A stretch of DNA of 63,919 nt, the filler included, from Sluysia triapertura (Eukaryota): assembly GCA_046118255.1 (NCBI GenBank). It is 5 parts of 5 records of this genome, joined end to end, with 100 filler letters (N's around TTAATTAATTAA, not from the genome) between each part and the next. Parts side by side here need not be neighbours in the genome. Positions count along the whole stretch, not along the records: positions 16,715 to 27,708 come from JBJNIA010190430.1; 4 more parts are not named here. One strand, 5' to 3'. The notes beneath the pieces were generated by a model. That model worked only from the letters and a program-made list of their open reading frames with translations, searched no databases and had not been told where the DNA came from. The first letter of the stretch is position 1; the number at the start of each line of letters is the position of its first letter. Shown in pieces: positions 18,842 through 54,884 of the stretch. A program made the translations under genes and the position numbers.

Positions 18842-20676
18842 GTAAATGACAAATTATATTTTTTTATAACTAATATGTATTACAATTTGTTTTGACATAC
18901 ACATGTAAGCAAGCTGTAATAAATTTAACAACTATCTATTACTAAAAATTTAGTTTCATGAAAATTCTACGAACAATCCATTTATATCTTTTGTTAAATT
19001 TTGAACAGTGTATTGTTGAGTTAACTAAAATGATATTCATTACTAATATTGCGGAGTAAGGGAACTTATCCATAGTTTTAGATGTTACTTGTTTGCAGTT
19101 GGGAAGCATTTTTCTTTTCACTTACATAAAACTAATAAAGGGGAAAAATGCTTTTCTAACCTTTTTTCGCTGATTTTTGAAACTCCATTCTATCTCTTAA
19201 ACTGTTAAAATAGACTGGTAATTTTTGATACTAGTCTGCATATTATTAATAAAATTTTCACATTTTACGAGAGATGTTGGAAATTCTTTTATTTAAACGC
19301 GGTGAACATTTTTATGTATATCTCAAAGTATATATTTAATGTGATTATAGGGAACCACATATTTTCACGTCAAAATTGCACACTTCATCATATATGAACA
19401 TTTCTTACATAAACAACACTAAATAAACTAATTGACTCATTCAAAAAACAAGCCTAGTCATTGTACATAATTAACATTAGTTGTATTTATTGTTATCATA
19501 ACATCTATCATAATTGTAATATATGATTATTTATTTAGATTTTAACCTGCGTGAATTCCTTACGATATTAGACGTACTCACTTAAGGGCTAATACGTAAA
19601 TGACATTAAATAATTATTTGGAGGTTTTTTATATTTTAAAGTGTCAACAGACTAGTTTCTGTCATATTGCAATGACAGGTTAGAATTATGTATTTTACGT
19701 CGGATCCCAATTAAAAAGGATCTTCGAAAATGAAATTTAATATTAAACTATCAAAGGATTTTTGGGACAGTTTATAACTATGTAAGTTTAATGCTACGAA
19801 AATAATTTAATTATGAAAACGCAATATGAATAATTTATATTAGGATAAAAATTATAGCAAGTTTACAAATCTTTGTTGTATATTAAATATATAAAGATTA
19901 CAAAAAGTTAAATACCAGTGGTAATTAATTTTTCTTATAAATGTTTTGAAATTAACTTTGTTTCAACAAATTAACTAAAAAGATTTTGATAAAATTCAAC
20001 ATTTTTTAAAGTTACTATGAACTATTAATCAGGAGTATGATTAAAAAGTATGACTAAAATTTAACATTTTTCAAAGTTATTATGGAACTATTAATCAAAA
20101 GTGTATAAATACAAACACACAAAAAATTGTTGTAAAATGTTGGAAAATAACTACTTTCTCAAAAAATTCTGGTGAAAGTAAAATAATAGATGAAAGTACT
20201 GAAATCCAAAACATTTCATTCATGTAGAATGACAACACAATTTACTATTACTATTATAACAATTAATATTACTAATATTGCAATTAGTGCTACCGCTGAA
20301 ACTCGTTTATGGTTTGTTTTATTATCTGACATGTACTAATTGGTGGTTGGTTTAATAGTACTGTATGTTCCAAAGATATACATAATGTTTCCTAATACTT
20401 CTCAGAGACAGTTGGGTTTTCGAAATTATAACATTCAATTGATACTTCATAAATGGCATGATTTATTTTGGAATGTTAACTTCGACTTGGATTCAAGTTC
20501 GAATTTCCGTATTAAGAGTCATTTCTATCAAATCTAAACAACCATTACATAAAACTAAAACGTAATATTATTTCATTCCATTGATTAAATAATATAAGTC
20601 ATACAATACAATTCAATTTTATTTCTCTGAAGTGCAAATAAAATCGCTATGGATTATTTGACTACACCAAATTACA

Positions 20677-24319: not shown

Positions 24320-25016
24320 CGAAAATGGAAAATATACGAAATAGCATTAATAGATCAAATATTAAATTAAAAATGCAAAAGAACAAACGAATTTGTATTA
24401 AAGAAAATTAATGAGAATGATTTAATGCACATTATGTCGGAAATGTCAAAAACAAGTTCTATTAACCCAATAGCAACCAAACTTATCAAAAATAATTCAA
24501 TTTGGATTAAATTTATTCCGATTTTATTGAAAATTATTAATAATTCATTATATAGTCTAAAATTTCCTTCAAGTGAAAAAGTATCCGTTATAGAACCTTA
24601 TATGAAACAAAGTGATCCATTGCTTTTAAATAATTATTATATACCCGTATCAAATATAACACTCTTATCAAAGTTGATAGAAAAAGTAGTTTTACAACAA
24701 TTATCAAAGTTCTTAGGCGAAAATCAACTTCTTACAATGTATCAATCAGCCTACATGTCTGGTGCTTTTGATACAGTTGATCATGAAATATTACTTTGTG
24801 ATCTCCAAAAAATGTCTCATATGAATCATATTTAAATGAAAGAAGGCAATATGTTTTATTAAATAATGTGAAGTCAAATGAGGTATATGTAAAGCATGGA
24901 GTTCCTCAGGAATCAATACTTGGTACGTTATTGTTTATATTATATATCAATGATGTTTCAAGTGTAATCGAATCATACGGTTTTATATATGATGACATGC
25001 AAATATATTGTGAATA
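24320..25016 (+). mobile_element. Non-LTR retrotransposon (L2/CR1-type) reverse transcriptase relic
   Basis: PVSNITLLSKLIEKVV, YQSAY, AFDTVDHEILL, RRQYV, HGVPQESILGTLLFILYIND and YDDMQIY occur in RT order with deletions and frameshifts. Confidence 0.92.
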
Positions 25017-25340
25017 ATGTGTGTATAAATAATGTTTCAAAATTATTTGTGTATAAATAATAATGTATGTATCAAAAATTATTTATAACTGATTTATAAA
25101 CTTATAATGTTTGTATCAAAATTATATATAACTGTTATTGATTTATAAACTTTTTATGAATAATTATTACTGATTTTTTAATACTTGATATTTATTTGAA
25201 ATTTATTTTGGATATTTTAATTGAATTTTTTAATATTGGAACGTAAGTAATTATAAATTTTTAAAAGTTAATTTTAGTATATTAAGTTAATTTTTGAAAA
25301 TAAAAGTTAATTTTAATTGTTTTAATATATTAAGTTAAAA

Positions 25341-26216
25341 TAATTTGTTTTAGTCTGGCTAAGGTCAGACTAAAACAATTATAAATAGTCATAGAATTTG
25401 CTAGACAGTACCACAATTTGGTAATTCAATTTTATAACCACAATTGTTTTAACAGTGTTTTGAGACAAAATTTGTTTTGAATTTGAACGTAACTTTAGCA
25501 AAACTTTTGAAACCATTTGCTGGATACTGTTTATCGAAGTTTAAAAAATAATTACGTTAGTTTGTTTATGTTAAGGTAGGATATAAGTAAATATATCCAC
25601 GCAAAATATACTAAAAATCATTTTTGATTAATTTTTCTTTAACAGATCTTATAATAGATCTGACGTAAAATCTCCATTAAAATATTATTGACTCAGGAAT
25701 TAATTTCATTTAATTCCTCGTAAACTACCATATATTTTATTATATTTAAATTCCTTTATTATTTTTTGTATTTAATAAAATTTTAAAAATCGTTCATTAT
25801 TCTTTAAAATTTCATAGTTTTAAATATAAAATCTATAGTAGAATAACGTTTTCAACAATTAGAATTTAAATCTAATCTCTAAAAATTATTTTTATAGATC
25901 ATTTTCATAGGATCATCGTAAAATATTTCATAAATTATTTCTCTTTATAGTTGAATAATAATAATTTCTTTAATTATTCAGAAAAACTTAATATTAAAGA
26001 TAACCTATACTGAAATCTGAAATTAACAATAAGCCAAGAATACCTGTACACTCTTTTATATATCTCCAGATTTAGATTAGATTTGAAAGACTAACACACA
26101 GACCTTGATCTTAGGGCATTTAGATACGTTCTTAGTGAAAATCCTTTCCATTATAGAAAATACCAACGGTCAGCCCTAACTAGTAAGCCTAATACGTTGG
26201 TGAATTTACGTTAAAA
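25341..26216 (+). repeat. Structured TATA-bearing non-coding repeat, copy A (LTR-like)
   Basis: Collinear conserved blocks with copy B (44971-45811, +) and copy C (35109-36080, -); see findings. Confidence 0.85.
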
Positions 26217-27627
26217 CCTTTTTTTTCTATTTTATCTTTTAAAATTCTCACAATATATTTAGAGTATGTGTTTTTTATTTAAGTTGGCGCTTGACTGTAT
26301 CGTCCTGGAAGTGCGATATTATGAAATATATCCGTACCGAACTGTTAATGTAAGTTTTAATAAAAAACTTATGATTCTATTCTACAACTCTTCATGCAAA
26401 CATTTTAAAACACACAATTTAATATGTTCACACTATAAACGTACTAGACTTCTCACTTTTCTTATATATCTACAGTACCGTTTAATACAGCTGATATCAA
26501 GATGCACTTAGACTAATAGCATCTTTTAAATTGCTTAATTATTTACACAATCTTAAATTTTGAAAAATCTCAAAAACTTAAATGTACCTTCAGTAAGTGC
26601 ATTAAGATATAATCTCAAAAAGTCCTACAATTAAATCAGCTAATTTGAATATGAAAAAATTGTTAGTCAAATGCTAGTCAAACCTCATCAATAATTTCAT
26701 TAACATTGTCACCTGTGATTTCTCTTTATTTTAATGTTTTAGATATATATTGGGACCATGATTTAGAGAAATGTAATATTTGTGTCTGTTTCATGTCTTT
26801 ATTAATTAATTCCAATAGCGATAACAGGTACACTTTAAATTCATTTGATCGTTATTTATTAACCACTACTGATGATATGACTATGATGAATTTGGTGAGT
26901 TTACTGAATTGAGACTGCTGTAAATGTTGTTTTTTGCTCTCCGTAATTACCATTATGCGGTCAATTCGAATTTGTTTTATTAAGATGAATTAGAAATTAC
27001 AGGTAGTATTGCTCGAATCAATAATTTTAGCAAAAAACAGCCTTGTTTGCATTCATAAAGTACAATTACGAAATATTTGTCTGTTTAAACAAATTAACCT
27101 CTGTTTATGACGAATTCGGCTATGGTTTCCTTATTGATTGCTGTAAGTATTCGATTGAAAAGAAAAATGAGAGTGAATTTGTTGATTTTAACAAGAAATT
27201 AATCATGGACTTTTTAATTTAATGCCAGTAATAAATTATTTAAAGTTTTGTATCACCACTATATCGAAGACACGTTTACAGTTATAACATCATTTCTAAC
27301 CATTCCTAATAATGATGTTTTACTCCTCAGTTTTGCAAACCACATAAACTACATGATTTCATGTTCACTAAAATTTACTCGCTTTAATTTTTATTTAAGT
27401 TCATTCAAAATTCTAAAATCAACTTCTCTATATTATACAACCACATCGACCATATTGTCTTATCAATTAATTTTCTCTATGTCTGGGAAACCTTTTCTGG
27501 CAATGTATTCTTTAATAAATTTACTTTCACAAGAAAATCATATAACTGGAATAAACTGAAAATAATAATTAAAATTATACAAAGAAAAATGCCGACAAAT
27601 CAAAATGTTATAATCACAATCAATATT

Positions 27628-35108: not shown

Positions 35109-36080
35109 GTGAATTCACCAACGTATTTAGACTTACAAATTATGACTAACCGTTGGATTTTAAAGAAATAACGCTAAAAACTTCTGCAGGTTAATATATG
35201 ATCAACAATGTCTAGTGGTACTTAATTGAGCTGTGTTTTGTCTATTCTGCTATTAAAATATTTGTCATATTATGTCTATTACAGTAGAGGGTTTAAGTAA
35301 AATTCTTGTATATTTTATCAGTTAATTTTACAGGAGATCCTTCTTAAATAGAATCTATCAAAATTTAATACTTTACAGTATCTGATGTGAAATTTGGGAT
35401 TAGTAATTAATTTAGTAATTAGTAATTAATTTGAATAATTTTGAAATTATAGAATTTACAAAAGATCCTTCTTAAATTAGACCGTTATGCAAATTTTAAT
35501 TTGTCTAATGGTAACTTTATATATGGAAATTTACGAATGATCCTATTAAACACGATCAATAAATTCAATAAGTTACGCGCTCCGATATTGAAAAATCGGC
35601 TCTTTTGAAAACAATTAGAATAAAAATTATTTTAATTTAAGGCAACGAATCTAGTAAAAACAAAAAAATCATTTTATATATGTATTAAATAGAATATAAT
35701 TTTATATTACAATCAGATCAAATTAACTTTCACAAATTATAGTTAAGGTTAAGCTTTCTTGTTATTTTTAAGTGGTTACTGGCCTAACAGTATTGGTCTT
35801 AAAAAGATATATATTAATCAAAGATTTTATATCGAACATTTTTTAAAATGGTTCTAAAATAGTTCAGGGTTGGTTTAAGTTAATTTTACACTGTACATAA
35901 AATATACTTAACTTAAGCAAAAACAAACTAACAATTGAATTTTCACAAAATGTCAAAGAAAAAATTGTCTTCTAAAGAACTGTCTTAAAATATTCGAAAT
36001 CTCGTTCCAATAAAAAAACTAATGCTGGTGAATCTTAATAAGATTTAAAAATAATTTCTGTATGAGTTTTTTTAATGAAT
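35109..36080 (-). repeat. Structured non-coding repeat, copy C (more diverged)
   Basis: The reverse complement contains GTTAGTTTGTTT, GATCGTGTTTAATAGGATCATTCGTAAA and CCAACGGTTAG...GTAAGTCTAAATACGTTGGTGAATTCAC in the same order as copies A and B. Confidence 0.75.
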
Positions 36081-44531: not shown

Positions 44532-44970
44532 TTAATAACATAAAAATGAATAAAATTGACAGACAAGCCACTATCAATGGTGACAAGAATTTATACATAG
44601 AAACTAATAGTGTCACCATTTATAATGGTAATTAGTGGTTATATAATTCGATAAAATTAAGAATAATAAAAATAAAAATGATAATAATGTAAATAACAAA
44701 TATTGATAAAAACACACTTTCGTTTTGATTGATACATAATTTTAACACACATTTTCGTTTAGTCTGATATATATGGATTATTTTATTGATTTTTAACTAT
44801 CTATAATATTTGTAATTTTATTGATTTATATTTTGTAATTTATAATTTTTGTTATAATTTTTGATTTTCAATTAATTGGATTATTTTCGAATTGGACTAT
44901 TAAATTTTAAGTTATAAACTTTAAAATTAATAAAATTTAGAATTACTTCTGTTTTAATAAATAAAATAAA

Positions 44971-45811
44971 TAATTTGTTTTAATCTGGCCAAGAGCAGTT
45001 AGATCAACTATAAATAGTCATAAAATTTAAAAATAAAACACAATTTTCTGTTAATACAAATTCTTATAAATATTTTTCGTCGAACCAAAAAGCAGGAGCC
45101 AAACTTTTGAAGACTAAGAAAAAATTCCTACGAAGAAAATTAAATTTTTACTGAATTTCTCCTTAAACAAAAAATACGTTAGTTTATTATGGTAGGTTTG
45201 GATATAAAATATATCCTCGAAAACTACACGTAAATTAAATTTCTATAATCATTTCCGAAATCTTATAATAGATGTCACGTACAATCACTGGTAAATTATT
45301 ATTATTTTGAGAATTAAAATTAATTCTACCTAATATTTTATTTTATATATATTCTCAATTGTACCTTATAAATTTGTTAGATAATTAGTGTATAATATTT
45401 GTTAAAGGTTTCATTTTTTGGATTTTTATAGTTTCGAATATAAAATCCATACCAAAGCAAAGATTTCTCCTATTAGAATTTAATTCTAATATCGCAAAAT
45501 CAATTATTACAGATACTTTTCACAGGATCTACTTCTAATAATATTTTTTCAGTTAACAAAATATTAAATTCCACTTGTTTATATACTATTTACAGCTTGC
45601 ATTGACTCCCATTTGTTATAAGAATTTGTTATAAGATTTGGCTATAAGAATTTAAATTCTGAATTAATAGCAAAATTATTAAAGTAAGAGCATCCTATTA
45701 AATTTACACTTGAGGAAGTTATTCCACCTTTATTTAACAAATATTTTCTCTATAAATCCAACGGCTAGCGCTACCTGGTAAGCCTAGTATGTTGGTGGAC
45801 TCACGTTAAAA
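44971..45811 (+). repeat. Structured TATA-bearing non-coding repeat, copy B
   Basis: Same ordered blocks as copy A: TAATTTGTTTTA.TCTGGC.AAG, TATAAATAGTCATA, TACGTTAGTTT, GGATATA..TATATCC, CTTATAATAGAT, ATTAGAATTTAA.TCTAAT, TTTTCA.AGGATC, CCAACGG...GTTGGTG, ACGTTAAAA. Confidence 0.85.
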
Positions 45812-46439
45812 ATCTTGTTTTATTCTATAAGGATCTTATTTACTTTTAAATCCACACATATCTATTACGTCTTTATTTCATTATTTATGTCAGTTATTTT
45901 ATAGTAAAATAAACTTAACTTGAAATCTTACTGAATTTTAATGCTTGTTAAAATTTATTACAAACTATCACAAAGAATTTTCTTTACCTACAATACAAAT
46001 CAATTTATTACTTTAAGAACTCCTCATTACTATTAAATCTAAGTTAATTCCTTCTAATTTTAAAATAAATAAAATCAAAATATACAACTTTAATTATATT
46101 CAATATAAGGTAATTTCAATAATAGGGAAGTAAAAGCAAATAATTCCAATTAATTTTTCCAAATTATCTATTCTTAATATTATCAATCTAATATTCAAAA
46201 CTACTGTTACTTAACAGTAATTCGAAATAAAATATGAAAAATAACCAAAATAATAATTAATAAAAATAAAATGAAAAACAGGGGTGATGCAACGTAAAAT
46301 CTAAATAAAATATTTTAACTATTACTCATGTTTATTCCTTAATCAAATGTAAATTTTCCCATAAATTATGTAATTTAATTCAAATAATGAAACATAAATT
46401 TAATCTTAATATAAGTAAATTAATTAAAAATAAATCTAA

Positions 46440-47010: not shown

Positions 47011-47574
47011 ATGTATTATGTTTTTTATTATTATTTTGCGGATTTTCCACATTTTTAGATTATCGTGCTGATCCTCACCATCATTAGCAGTTTACTGTAT
47101 AATAAAATGGAAATGTATTATTAGCTCAATTTTTAAATAGAATGCTTAGATTCGAGTTAATATCTTCTTTCTGGCAATATTTTTCAACTTGAGTCATTCA
47201 TTCATCAATGTAATGATATATATGGAATGATATACTTATTATTAAAATGAGTATAATAATTATTGTGAAAGTAATTATTATAACAATAACTATAAATTTA
47301 TGGTAATTATAAAATATGACTATGTTTATGTTTTAAATGTATCGAGTAACTTGTTCAGCATTTTATTTATGTATGAAGTGTTGATTTATGATGAAATTGG
47401 TTTATGTTGTGATGTCTAGATTTAGAGTTCACTACAATATTTATACACTTTCAAACAATTTTATTCAATAAGAAAAAAACTATAAGATAAATTGGGCAGG
47501 GAGTCTTCCAAAAATTAAATAAGATCTATTTAATAAAAGCTAAATTGACATAATAATTAATACTACACACGCAG

Positions 47575-47740: not shown

Positions 47741-47859
47741 ATTTAAATTCTATGCAAAATGAGGTTTTCATTGTGTTTTATATAACATAAGTACTTATAA
47801 TTTTTACAAATGTAAAAAATATGTTAAAAGAATTTCATCTATTCTTTTTGGTTTGTCAT

Positions 47860-48015
47860 AAGCCGACCAATTTTATTGATTAAATTTAAACAGTAATTTT
47901 CGCCTATGTCCAATATCATTATATTTTATAATTACTCAAAGATAATGGGATTTTTGATGAACAGTCTTTTATCTTTTCAACATAATTAAAACAAAATTTA
48001 ATATCGTTATTGCAT
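47860..48015 (+). repeat. Interspersed repeat homologous to 54660-54810 (+) and 53790-53940 (-)
   Basis: Shared CAAAGATAATGGGAT, ATGAACA and TTTCAACATAATTAAA.CAAAATTTAA.ATCGTTATT. Confidence 0.8.
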
Positions 48016-48089
48016 AAGTATTCTATTTTTAACGTAATTTATTAACTTAAATTAAGGATAGAATTAATGAAATACCAAATTCATTTTTC

Positions 48090-53700: not shown

Positions 53701-53857
53701 GATTTTAATAAACTTAACGTAGCAACAAGGTATGATTTTCAATTACGTGCAAAAACTTAAATAATAAAATAGCAATGTTATAATAAAAACAATGTTCAAT
53801 TATGTTAACATGTCACAATGATGTTTGGGGATTGTTTGTCACAAATCCCATTGTTTT

Positions 53858-54016
53858 TGGGTAATTGCGGGAGATAATAAATTGGAAGCCGACGGAAATT
53901 ATCGTCGAAGTTTAATTATTTAAATAGGTCGGCTTATCATCGACTTAAAAGAATGAATAATTATATGAATTAATTTTTTCTGTTTTCCAATTTTTTATCT
54001 CCTCAGCAATTACCCA
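53858..54016. mobile_element. MITE with TTGGGTAATTGC termini; an inverted second copy lies at about 54591-54737
   Basis: TTGGGTAATTGCGGGAGATAA ... TTATCTCCTCAGCAATTACCCAA. The internal sequence aligns in reverse complement with 54591-54737. Confidence 0.75.
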
Positions 54017-54884
54017 ACTACTGTATAAGCAGTCTCATTTTAGTTAAAATTAGAACAAAAAAGATATCTGAATAAGTCAGAAGAATAAGAGTAAACTTCA
54101 CTTCCAATAAGACAGCTGTCCCAAAACATTTGTGATGATCACTGTTTGTGATAATTGATCTTTAGCAATTAACACAGCTTATAAGTTTTAGTACTGTTGT
54201 CTTTATTTAAAAATAACTCAATGGTTAAATTAATACTAAGTCTAAATATATTCTCAATTACCACAATATATTATCAATTATTCTTTTATAACAAATACTT
54301 CAATATGTAAATTCAAAAATTATAAATCACTATCGTACGTACTAAATCTATAAAAATCCAGGGTGACATAACGAGATAAATGTTGACAATAACAATAACG
54401 TAAATTACTAACCCTAACAATAAAACTACGGCTTATAAAGTTTAGTCAGCTGCTGAAGATAAGTCCTCAATAACAGTGCATATCACAAATGTGTTGAGGC
54501 AGCGCTCTTTATGGAGATAAAGTTCTGTAAATAAAGTTTTCTGTTTAATTCATTTATATTGTTCTGTTTTTGTGACAAAAAATGTATCACTTGGGTAATT
54601 GCTTAGCATATTAAAAATTGGAAAAATGGAAATAATTATTCATTTTTTAGTCGATCATAAACCAACCAATTTTAATAATTAAATTCTAATATTAATTTCC
54701 GTCGGTTTTTACTTTATTGTCTCCTGCAATTAATCAAAGATAATGGGATCCGCAATGAACAATCCCCTTATAATTTCAACATAATTAAATCAAAATTTAA
54801 CATCGTTATTACACGAATATATAAAACTAATCAGACTAAATTTATTTTCCATGTAAATAATTTTTAATGGTTATTATATCGTAA

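What the first reader, a model, noticed from the sequence alone, without database searches (positions are those of the whole stretch)
26162..26216. Conserved 38-39-nt hairpin enclosing a 5' splice-site motif
Seen: A CCAACG-GTCAGCCCTAACTA-GTAAG-CCTAATA-CGTTGG (26163-26200); B CCAACG-GCTAGCGCTACCTG-GTAAG-CCTAGTA-TGTTGG (45758-45795); C CCAACG-GTTAGTCATAATTT-GTAAG-TCTAAATA-CGTTGG (35156-35118). GTAAG is at an identical offset in all three, the outer stem is kept (one G-U), and the inner G(T/C)(C/T)AG/CTA(A/G) pairing varies compatibly. Pyrimidine tracts ending in AG follow. This is the best-conserved part of the family. Inference: a structure-regulated splice donor or U1 site, reminiscent of donor-bearing stem-loops in retroviral leaders and spliced-leader RNAs, or a packaging/priming signal.
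Basis: partly seen in the sequence, partly recalled or inferred. Interest (0 to 1): 0.7.

Follow-up and report, generated by a model that had tools for sequence, protein, structure and literature searches.

The report
Donor hairpin in flatworm retrotransposon end
The hairpin is a conserved piece of the end repeat of a jumping element found in thousands of copies in what is likely a flatworm genome, just ahead of the site where a transfer RNA primes its copying, and its splice-signal-like loop likely keeps the element's RNA from being cut short.

Summary
The hairpin is real and is not a three-copy curiosity: 7,393 matches in this genome against 2 for the control. It lies about 50 nt inside the right end of the LTR of a Ty3/gypsy family arranged gag-env-pol, like planarian Burro elements. 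Copy A is a 1,244-bp solo LTR with a 4-bp target duplication. In 5' LTRs the hairpin is followed by a 9-mer complementary to the T arm of tRNA-Met, a U5-leader stem and an 18-nt tRNA-Met primer binding site. The inner stem covaries. GTAAG is kept in 5,542 of 6,489 copies found without asking for it, and matches host donors. A positionally conserved AATAAA lies 219-420 nt upstream. Best reading: an RNA leader element of the retrotransposon whose GTAAG likely binds U1 and guards that poly(A) signal, as in HIV-1 and foamy virus. No RNA data were available and no spliced copy was found, so use of the donor is untested. A spliced-leader gene or Helentron end is rejected. The scan earlier noted a similar GTAAG stem-loop elsewhere in this genome and called it a Helentron-like end.

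The parts
25009..26252 (+). Solo LTR, copy A (starts TGTGA, ends TCACA), inserted in a decayed LINE RT fragment
   Evidence: RVT_1 weak hit E 0.042 for 24371-24832
25005..25008 (+). Left copy of the 4-bp target site duplication ATAT
26253..26256 (+). Right copy of the 4-bp target site duplication ATAT
25554..25563 (+). Conserved initiator-like motif, inferred transcription start (U3/R border)
   Evidence: core found in 17 of 34 upstream clusters; positions; role inferred
25774..25779 (+). AATAAA, inferred poly(A) signal near the end of R
   Evidence: at +195..224 from the initiator-like motif in 27 of 45 copies, 1-6 in other 30-nt windows
26062..26072 (+). Motif complementary to tRNA-Met nt 38-48 (anticodon stem 3' strand and variable loop)
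   Evidence: family motif in 51 of 98 copies, 0.64 expected
26163..26200 (+). U5 hairpin, copy A
26183..26187 (+). GTAAG donor-like motif in copy A
26201..26209 (+). PAS-like 9-mer (decayed in A), complementary to the T arm of tRNA-Met
   Evidence: 93 of 98 copies pair with tRNA nt 50-58
26218..26236 (+). T-rich U5 tract; 5' arm of the predicted U5-leader stem in 5' LTRs
   Evidence: TTTATTC within 1 mismatch in 36 of 37 5' LTRs and 73 of 74 others; mean stem probability 0.72
44681..45858 (+). LTR copy B, same subfamily as A (62% identity); ends approximate, no target duplication found
45176..45185 (+). Initiator-like motif in copy B
45758..45795 (+). U5 hairpin, copy B; GTAAG at 45778-45782
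45796..45804 (+). PAS-like 9-mer, copy B
35118..35156 (-). U5 hairpin, copy C, another LTR subfamily; GTAAG at 35136-35132
35109..35117 (-). PAS-like 9-mer, copy C
35157..35938 (-). Upstream LTR remnant of copy C; limits uncertain
   Evidence: short match to L018 at 35938-35883; own cluster

Best explanation
The hairpin is a conserved element near the right end of the LTR of a high-copy gag-env-pol Ty3/gypsy family, directly followed by a 9-mer complementary to the T arm of the tRNA-Met that matches its primer binding site, and its GTAAG likely binds U1 snRNP to stop premature cleavage at the poly(A) signal of the 5' LTR. Shown: LTR context, target duplication, PBS, primer identity, domain order, covarying inner stem, conservation of GTAAG, a positionally fixed AATAAA 219-420 nt upstream. 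Inferred: transcription starts at the initiator-like motif, so R is about 240 nt and the hairpin is in U5; the RNA leader folds so that the hairpin abuts the PAS-like helix, the U5-leader stem brings this next to the PBS, and an upstream motif pairs with tRNA nt 40-48, giving a three-part primer contact. Inferred and untested: U1 bound at GTAAG near the cap suppresses the upstream AATAAA, and perhaps the second AATAAA that lies between the 5' LTR and the PBS; at the 3' LTR cleavage would occur before or despite the donor. The three window copies are dead solo or remnant LTRs.
For: 7,393 genome matches, control 2. 242 places where the 3' arm and 9-mer are followed by CA and TGGTG; most of the 100 listed read (TA)GAATAAAC-TGGTG, then gag. 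PBS is the reverse complement of the last 18 nt of a genomic tRNA-Met with CCA. Four copies continue from the PBS into copied tRNA up to the anticodon loop, direct traces of this primer. Domain order gag, fusion glycoprotein, PR, RT, RH, IN in L138 and L139; L140 has the same order without a PR hit. 4-bp duplications in 3 of 4 complete solo LTRs. Inner stem: CG/UA 23/17, GC/AU 22/16, GU/CG 37/3; 97.5% of cells paired; covariation 0.204 against 0.123 +/- 0.009. GTAAG in 5,542 of 6,489 and 57 of 70 loci picked without it; +1..+5 kept at 93-100% while -2, -4, -5 and +6 vary. Host exons in the window end in GTAAGT or GTAAGA. 9-mer pairs tRNA nt 50-58 in 93 of 98, and its two variable positions (T/C, A/G) are the two that G-U pairing allows. 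AATAAA fixed at +195..224 in 27 of 45. Precedent: HIV-1 donor 195 nt after the poly(A) signal and foamy donor before it both suppress 5' LTR polyadenylation through U1 (PMC3694450, abstract and Background read).
Against: No RNA evidence for start, cleavage site, U1 binding or splicing. A donor inside U5 is present in both LTRs, so it needs a further asymmetry; folding shows none (donor unpaired 0.53 in LTR alone, 0.51 with leader, 0.61 with primer sites blocked; 34 copies). Position -1 is G in only 58 of 70 and -2 is A in only 6 of 70, unlike an optimal donor. G+5 and A+3 can pair with the 5' side of the loop (42 and 41 of 43), so structure alone could keep part of the motif. The outer stem is invariant, partly by the way copies were picked, and carries no covariation; two of five measures do not beat shuffles (159 and 473 of 500), and related copies inflate the others. 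17 of 45 copies lack AATAAA at +195..234, including B.
Confidence: 0.45

Rival explanations
1. GTAAG is a working donor of a 63-89-nt intron that ends at the YAG formed only at the 5' LTR-leader junction. Splicing would remove the PAS-like 9-mer and the U5 integration end but keep the PBS, giving a translation-only mRNA apart from the unspliced genome.
For: YAG at the junction in 31 of 37 5' LTRs, in both CAG and TAG forms; lengths 63-89, median 72; pyrimidine share median 0.71. CTCAC inside the 9-mer resembles a branch point (recalled consensus). Host uses GTAAG donors.
Against: Another AG lies between in 22 of 37, and 10 of 37 have under 60% pyrimidine. The AG is also explained by pairing of AGAATAAA with TTTATTCT, and CTCAC by tRNA pairing. 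Joined form: 0 of 3 hits; none of 7 joints listed in the DNA contig run starts at the donor. Such RNA could not integrate normally, so absence is weak.
Confidence: 0.18
2. The loop is a dimerization or packaging signal: the hexamer ending at the T of GTAAG is self-complementary and would form a kissing pair between two genomes, and the donor look is incidental.
For: Hexamer self-complementary with G-U allowed in 58 of 71 short-loop copies; variation at -4 (A/G) and -2 (T/C) is what such pairing allows and is not what a donor prefers. Retroviral DIS loops with a GC dyad lie in the 5' leader (PMC12789967, passages read).
Against: Only 6 of 17 long-loop copies are self-complementary, yet they keep GTAAG. 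A+3, A+4 and G+5 lie outside the palindrome and are the best kept.
Confidence: 0.18
3. The hairpin is only a scaffold or protein-binding stem-loop of the reverse-transcription start complex; GTAAG is kept by pairing across the loop or by nucleocapsid or RT contacts, not by U1.
For: The hairpin abuts the PAS-like 9-mer with no spacer in all aligned copies. C-G and U-A pairs into GTAAG in 42 and 41 of 43. Outer stem probability rises from 0.48 to 0.83 when the primer sites are blocked.
Against: Those loop pairs never covary, and G+1, T+2 and A+4 are unpaired yet kept at 93-97% across loops of three lengths.
Confidence: 0.15
4. The copies are spliced-leader RNA genes or donate a short leader in trans.
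For: Donor in a stem-loop; flatworms trans-splice (recalled).
Against: The hairpin is about 500 nt after the inferred start and inside an LTR followed by PBS and gag. No Rfam match. The bases before the donor are not ATG, the end recalled for flatworm leaders.
Confidence: 0.02
5. The hairpin is the 3' terminal structure of a Helentron-like or other DNA transposon.
Against: TG...CA ends, 4-bp duplication, PBS, gag and pol downstream.
Confidence: 0.01

Closest known systems
Burro giant gypsy elements of planarians (PMC6431247, passages read)
   Same: Env with hits to mononegavirus fusion glycoproteins between gag and pol; BCL2-like motif before it (here only a weak hit, E 0.044); thousands of copies in a flatworm.
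   Different: Here the internal region looks about 8-9 kb and the LTR of A is 1.2 kb, against an internal region up to 25 kb. The passages read say nothing on LTR RNA structure, primer or donor. Grohme 2018 itself was not read.
GAG-ENV-POL errantiviruses of Platyhelminthes (PMC13524379; section 5 part 1 of 2, passages and supplement rows read)
   Same: Same ORF order and gB-type envelope. The Smed_errantivirus_1 env row shows the same cysteine and motif pattern as the L139 protein (compared by eye only).
   Different: No PBS was assigned for 8 of their 9 flatworm elements; here it is tRNA-Met, 8-10 nt after the LTR. The main text has no hit for 'splic'.
HIV-1 primer activation signal (PMC5066621, passages read)
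   Same: 8-9-nt U5 motif about 45-60 nt before the PBS, complementary to the T arm of the primer.
   Different: Here shown by sequence only. The further contact with tRNA nt 40-48 recalls HIV-1 'motif 9' (recalled; one search gave no hit for the term), but that lies in U3 and this one is inferred to lie in U5.
U1-dependent suppression of 5' LTR polyadenylation in HIV-1 and foamy virus (PMC3694450)
   Same: Donor within a few hundred nt of an LTR poly(A) signal; donor inside the LTR and structured, as in foamy virus.
   Different: Here the donor is after the R signal yet inside U5, a position neither virus has; no structure switch was found.
Ty1 and Ty3 bipartite primer binding (PMC5371799, passages read)
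   Same: tRNA-Met primer with contacts beyond the PBS.
   Different: Those use initiator tRNA; this gene lacks initiator features (recalled criteria), and all contacts are local to the leader.

Membership tests
Ty3/gypsy LTR retrotransposon | LTR with TG...CA ends and short target duplication | tested here: met
   A 25009-26252; 4-bp duplication in 3 of 4 complete solo LTRs
Ty3/gypsy LTR retrotransposon | PBS complementary to a host tRNA 3' end after the 5' LTR | tested here: met
   18-nt match to tRNA-Met; primer read-through copies
Ty3/gypsy LTR retrotransposon | gag, then PR-RT-RH-IN order | tested here: met
   Pfam and tblastn maps
Ty3/gypsy LTR retrotransposon | Two LTRs around one internal region, polypurine tract before the 3' LTR | tested here: inconclusive
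   Contigs too short; no element with both LTRs and pol among those fetched; no PPT seen
GAG-ENV-POL errantivirus / Burro-like | Class III (gB-type) fusion gene between gag and pol | tested here: met
   PF24664 E 1e-27 and 3e-26; position in L138, L139, L140
GAG-ENV-POL errantivirus / Burro-like | One in-frame polyprotein from gag to integrase | tested here: inconclusive
   All copies read are broken by stops and shifts
GAG-ENV-POL errantivirus / Burro-like | RT groups with Burro or Smed errantivirus in a tree | not tested
5' splice site (U1-bound donor) | Matches host donor consensus | tested here: met
   Three host exon ends in the window read GTAAGT or GTAAGA; profile
5' splice site (U1-bound donor) | Used in a junction or bound by U1 | not testable with these tools
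   No RNA holder listed; DNA proxies blank
Primer activation signal | U5 motif complementary to the primer T arm | tested here: met
   93 of 98
Primer activation signal | Stimulates initiation of reverse transcription | not testable with these tools
   needs a biochemical assay
Dimerization initiation loop | Self-complementary loop in all subfamilies | tested here: inconclusive
   58 of 71 short-loop, 6 of 17 long-loop copies
Spliced-leader RNA gene | Short capped exon directly at the start, donor, then Sm site, in a stand-alone gene | tested here: not met
   Lies inside an LTR about 500 nt after the inferred start; no Rfam hit
Helentron / DINE-1 end | No PBS or gag; no 4-bp duplication | tested here: not met

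The most novel reading that the evidence does not exclude
An envelope-carrying flatworm gypsy element sorts its RNA into genome and message with a 70-nt intron that exists only across the 5' LTR-leader junction: the donor sits in the U5 hairpin, the branch point overlaps the tRNA-pairing signal and the acceptor is made by the LTR end itself, so one splice deletes the priming enhancer and the integration end while the same donor guards two poly(A) signals.
Probability: 0.15. Interest if true: 0.75.

Novelty: new variant of a known kind. Interest (0 to 1): 0.4.

Why it matters
The element kind is known, but its control signals were not found described in nine searches. If the reading holds, an invertebrate gypsy lineage has a retrovirus-grade leader (PAS-like motif, third tRNA contact, U5-leader stem, U1 site), and solves the two-LTR poly(A) problem with a donor in a place no studied retrovirus uses. 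Thousands of solo LTRs each scatter a host-type donor through the genome, a possible source of chimeric transcripts. The primer offset of 8-10 nt and the motif set give a handle for annotating LTRs and PBS in other flatworm GAG-ENV-POL elements, most of which have none assigned.

Tried and rejected
Rfam scan: one chance hit elsewhere in the window. Sequencing runs: no RNA holder listed; the one run, X1, behaves as DNA contigs, so it says nothing on expression. Joined donor-acceptor form: 3 hits, none at the donor. 5' arm followed by non-donor letters: 32 hits, 30 read; all small indels, point changes, short deletions or one unrelated insertion; this covered only the short-loop families. Pairing of the 5' arm with the tRNA D arm: mean z -0.34 against shuffled tRNA, rejected. 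Structure switch between LTR and leader context: not seen. A spliced first exon that supplies the gag start codon: no ATG in an open frame before the donor in 63 of 71. Metagenome scan: one hit in a 67% GC bacterial-type contig, chance. Viral contig scan gave no answer. LTR-start search for more duplications and a PPT gave only 6 known copies. Literature searches found no description of this hairpin; subscription papers are not covered. PMC10309623 (Cer1) and PMC13238120 were read in passages and did not bear on it; supplements were read only for PMC13524379.

Full report
Observation. The window is five AT-rich stretches (24-26% GC). A host MFS gene in the window has flatworm and ribbon-worm proteins among its best named hits, so the host is likely a flatworm; this is an inference.

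Copy number. The pattern with GTAAG has 7,393 matches in the 619-Mb genome, control 2. Without GTAAG but with the downstream 9-mer it has 6,489; adding GTAAG leaves 5,542, or 85%. Among 70 loci picked by LTR similarity, PBS, gag or tRNA, 57 have GTAAG and 12 differ by one letter. The commonest change, G+1 to A (5 of 70), is no more frequent than G to A at another GG of the stem (7 of 70), as expected of decay in dead copies.

The element. A and B align over 1.2 kb at 62%. A runs from TGTGA at 25009 to TCACA at 26252 with ATAT on both sides, inside a decayed LINE fragment. Of four complete solo copies, three have a 4-bp duplication. In 242 places the same end is followed by TGGTG; most of the 100 listed have an 8-10-nt spacer, (TA)GAATAAAC. 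The next 18 nt are the reverse complement of the 3' end of a genomic tRNA-Met with CCA. Four copies run on from the PBS into copied tRNA as far as the anticodon loop, which shows that this tRNA primed them. Downstream lie gag with a zinc knuckle, an unknown region, a class III fusion glycoprotein (PF24664, E 1e-27), protease, RT, RNase H and integrase. This order is seen in L138 and L139, and in L140 without a protease hit; L153 lacks the env region. No fetched contig holds a whole element.

The hairpin. On 43 copies chosen by hand from 120 loci plus the window, 97.5% of cells pair, three inner pairs change on both sides, and slid controls fall to 17-44%; RNAalifold finds 11 of the 13 pairs unaided. 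The outer stem is invariant and was partly selected for. The number of covarying pairs does not beat shuffles (159 of 500), and copies are related, so the support is good but not decisive. The upstream 700 nt of 70 copies fall into 34 clusters, so the hairpin outlasts the rest of the LTR.

Its neighbours. The 9-mer directly after the stem pairs with tRNA nt 50-58 in 93 of 98 copies; it varies where G-U pairs allow. A motif complementary to tRNA nt 40-48 occurs 35-148 nt upstream in 51 of 98 (0.64 expected), at a distance that differs by subfamily. TTTATTC in U5 (36 of 37) can pair with the spacer before the PBS (mean probability 0.72). An initiator-like motif lies 413-644 nt upstream, and AATAAA follows it at +195..224 in 27 of 45 copies against 1-6 in other windows. 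Reading these as start and poly(A) signal is inference; it puts the hairpin in U5, 219-420 nt after the signal.

What GTAAG does. Positions +1 to +5 are kept at 93-100% in loops of three lengths while flanking positions vary, and host exons in the window end the same way. In HIV-1 a donor 195 nt after the poly(A) signal, and in foamy virus one before it, suppress 5' LTR polyadenylation through U1, without need of splicing in foamy virus (PMC3694450). I take this as the likeliest role (0.45). Against it: the donor is in both LTRs and folding shows no switch. A mini-intron to the YAG at the 5' LTR end is possible (31 of 37; but 22 of 37 have an AG between). A kissing loop fits short-loop families only. 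No spliced copy was found in DNA, which is weak evidence. These roles do not exclude each other.

Known relatives. Env between gag and pol is described for planarian Burro (PMC6431247) and for flatworm, nematode and bryozoan errantiviruses (PMC13524379), where 8 of 9 flatworm rows have no PBS. PAS is described for retroviruses (PMC5066621) and extended primer pairing for Ty1 and Ty3 (PMC5371799). Nine searches found no account of this hairpin.

Verdict. A real, structurally conserved U5 element of a known kind of retrotransposon, with an undescribed set of leader signals and an untested donor. New variant of a known kind; interest 0.4.

Noticed in passing
gag start in 48 loci, e.g. L091, L106-L134: Synonymous variation extends about 16-18 codons before the first ATG of gag, with in-frame stops just beyond; an ATA codon in an A-rich context is kept in 41 of 48. 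Gag likely starts at a non-AUG codon. One search found no gypsy precedent.
   Followed up: partly
L096, L097, L098, L099 (G000:C62467, C63639, C87077, C196190): LTR plus PBS continuing into about 38 nt of copied tRNA-Met, all four ending at the same place next to the anticodon loop: integrated primer read-through products. L095, L101-L104 hold similar tRNA 3' halves without this LTR.
   Followed up: partly
5' LTR-PBS spacer, e.g. L149:1853-1872: The spacer is 8-10 nt and contains AATAAA, a potential poly(A) signal present only at the 5' end; the PBS itself sits in a small hairpin, and the motif after it is repeated through the leader.
   Followed up: partly
L139:3793-5079 (-), L145:3271-4251 (-): Class III viral fusion glycoprotein with a signal-peptide-like stretch between gag and pol; weak Bcl-2 hit just before it.
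   Followed up: partly
window 34178-33498 and 30150-29662 (-): PCIF1-like cap methyltransferase domain in two pieces 3.3 kb apart, about 1 kb downstream of LTR copy C on the same strand; C's donor could join it, not tested.
   Followed up: no
window 51112-50531 (-): 194-aa frame that looks by eye like a DEDD exonuclease; no Pfam hit.
   Followed up: no
window 53827-53950 and 54644-54767; also 47810-48021: Inverted-repeat element with 124-nt arms and a related copy in another stretch; gave the only, chance, Rfam hit.
   Followed up: no
window 9075-9273, 47238-47437, 19313-19532: A second dispersed repeat of about 200 nt in three stretches.
   Followed up: no
LTR upstream regions: AAGGTCA, a nuclear-receptor-like half site (recalled), is enriched around -600 to -690, and CGTAAAAT recurs between the initiator-like motif and the hairpin.
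   Followed up: no
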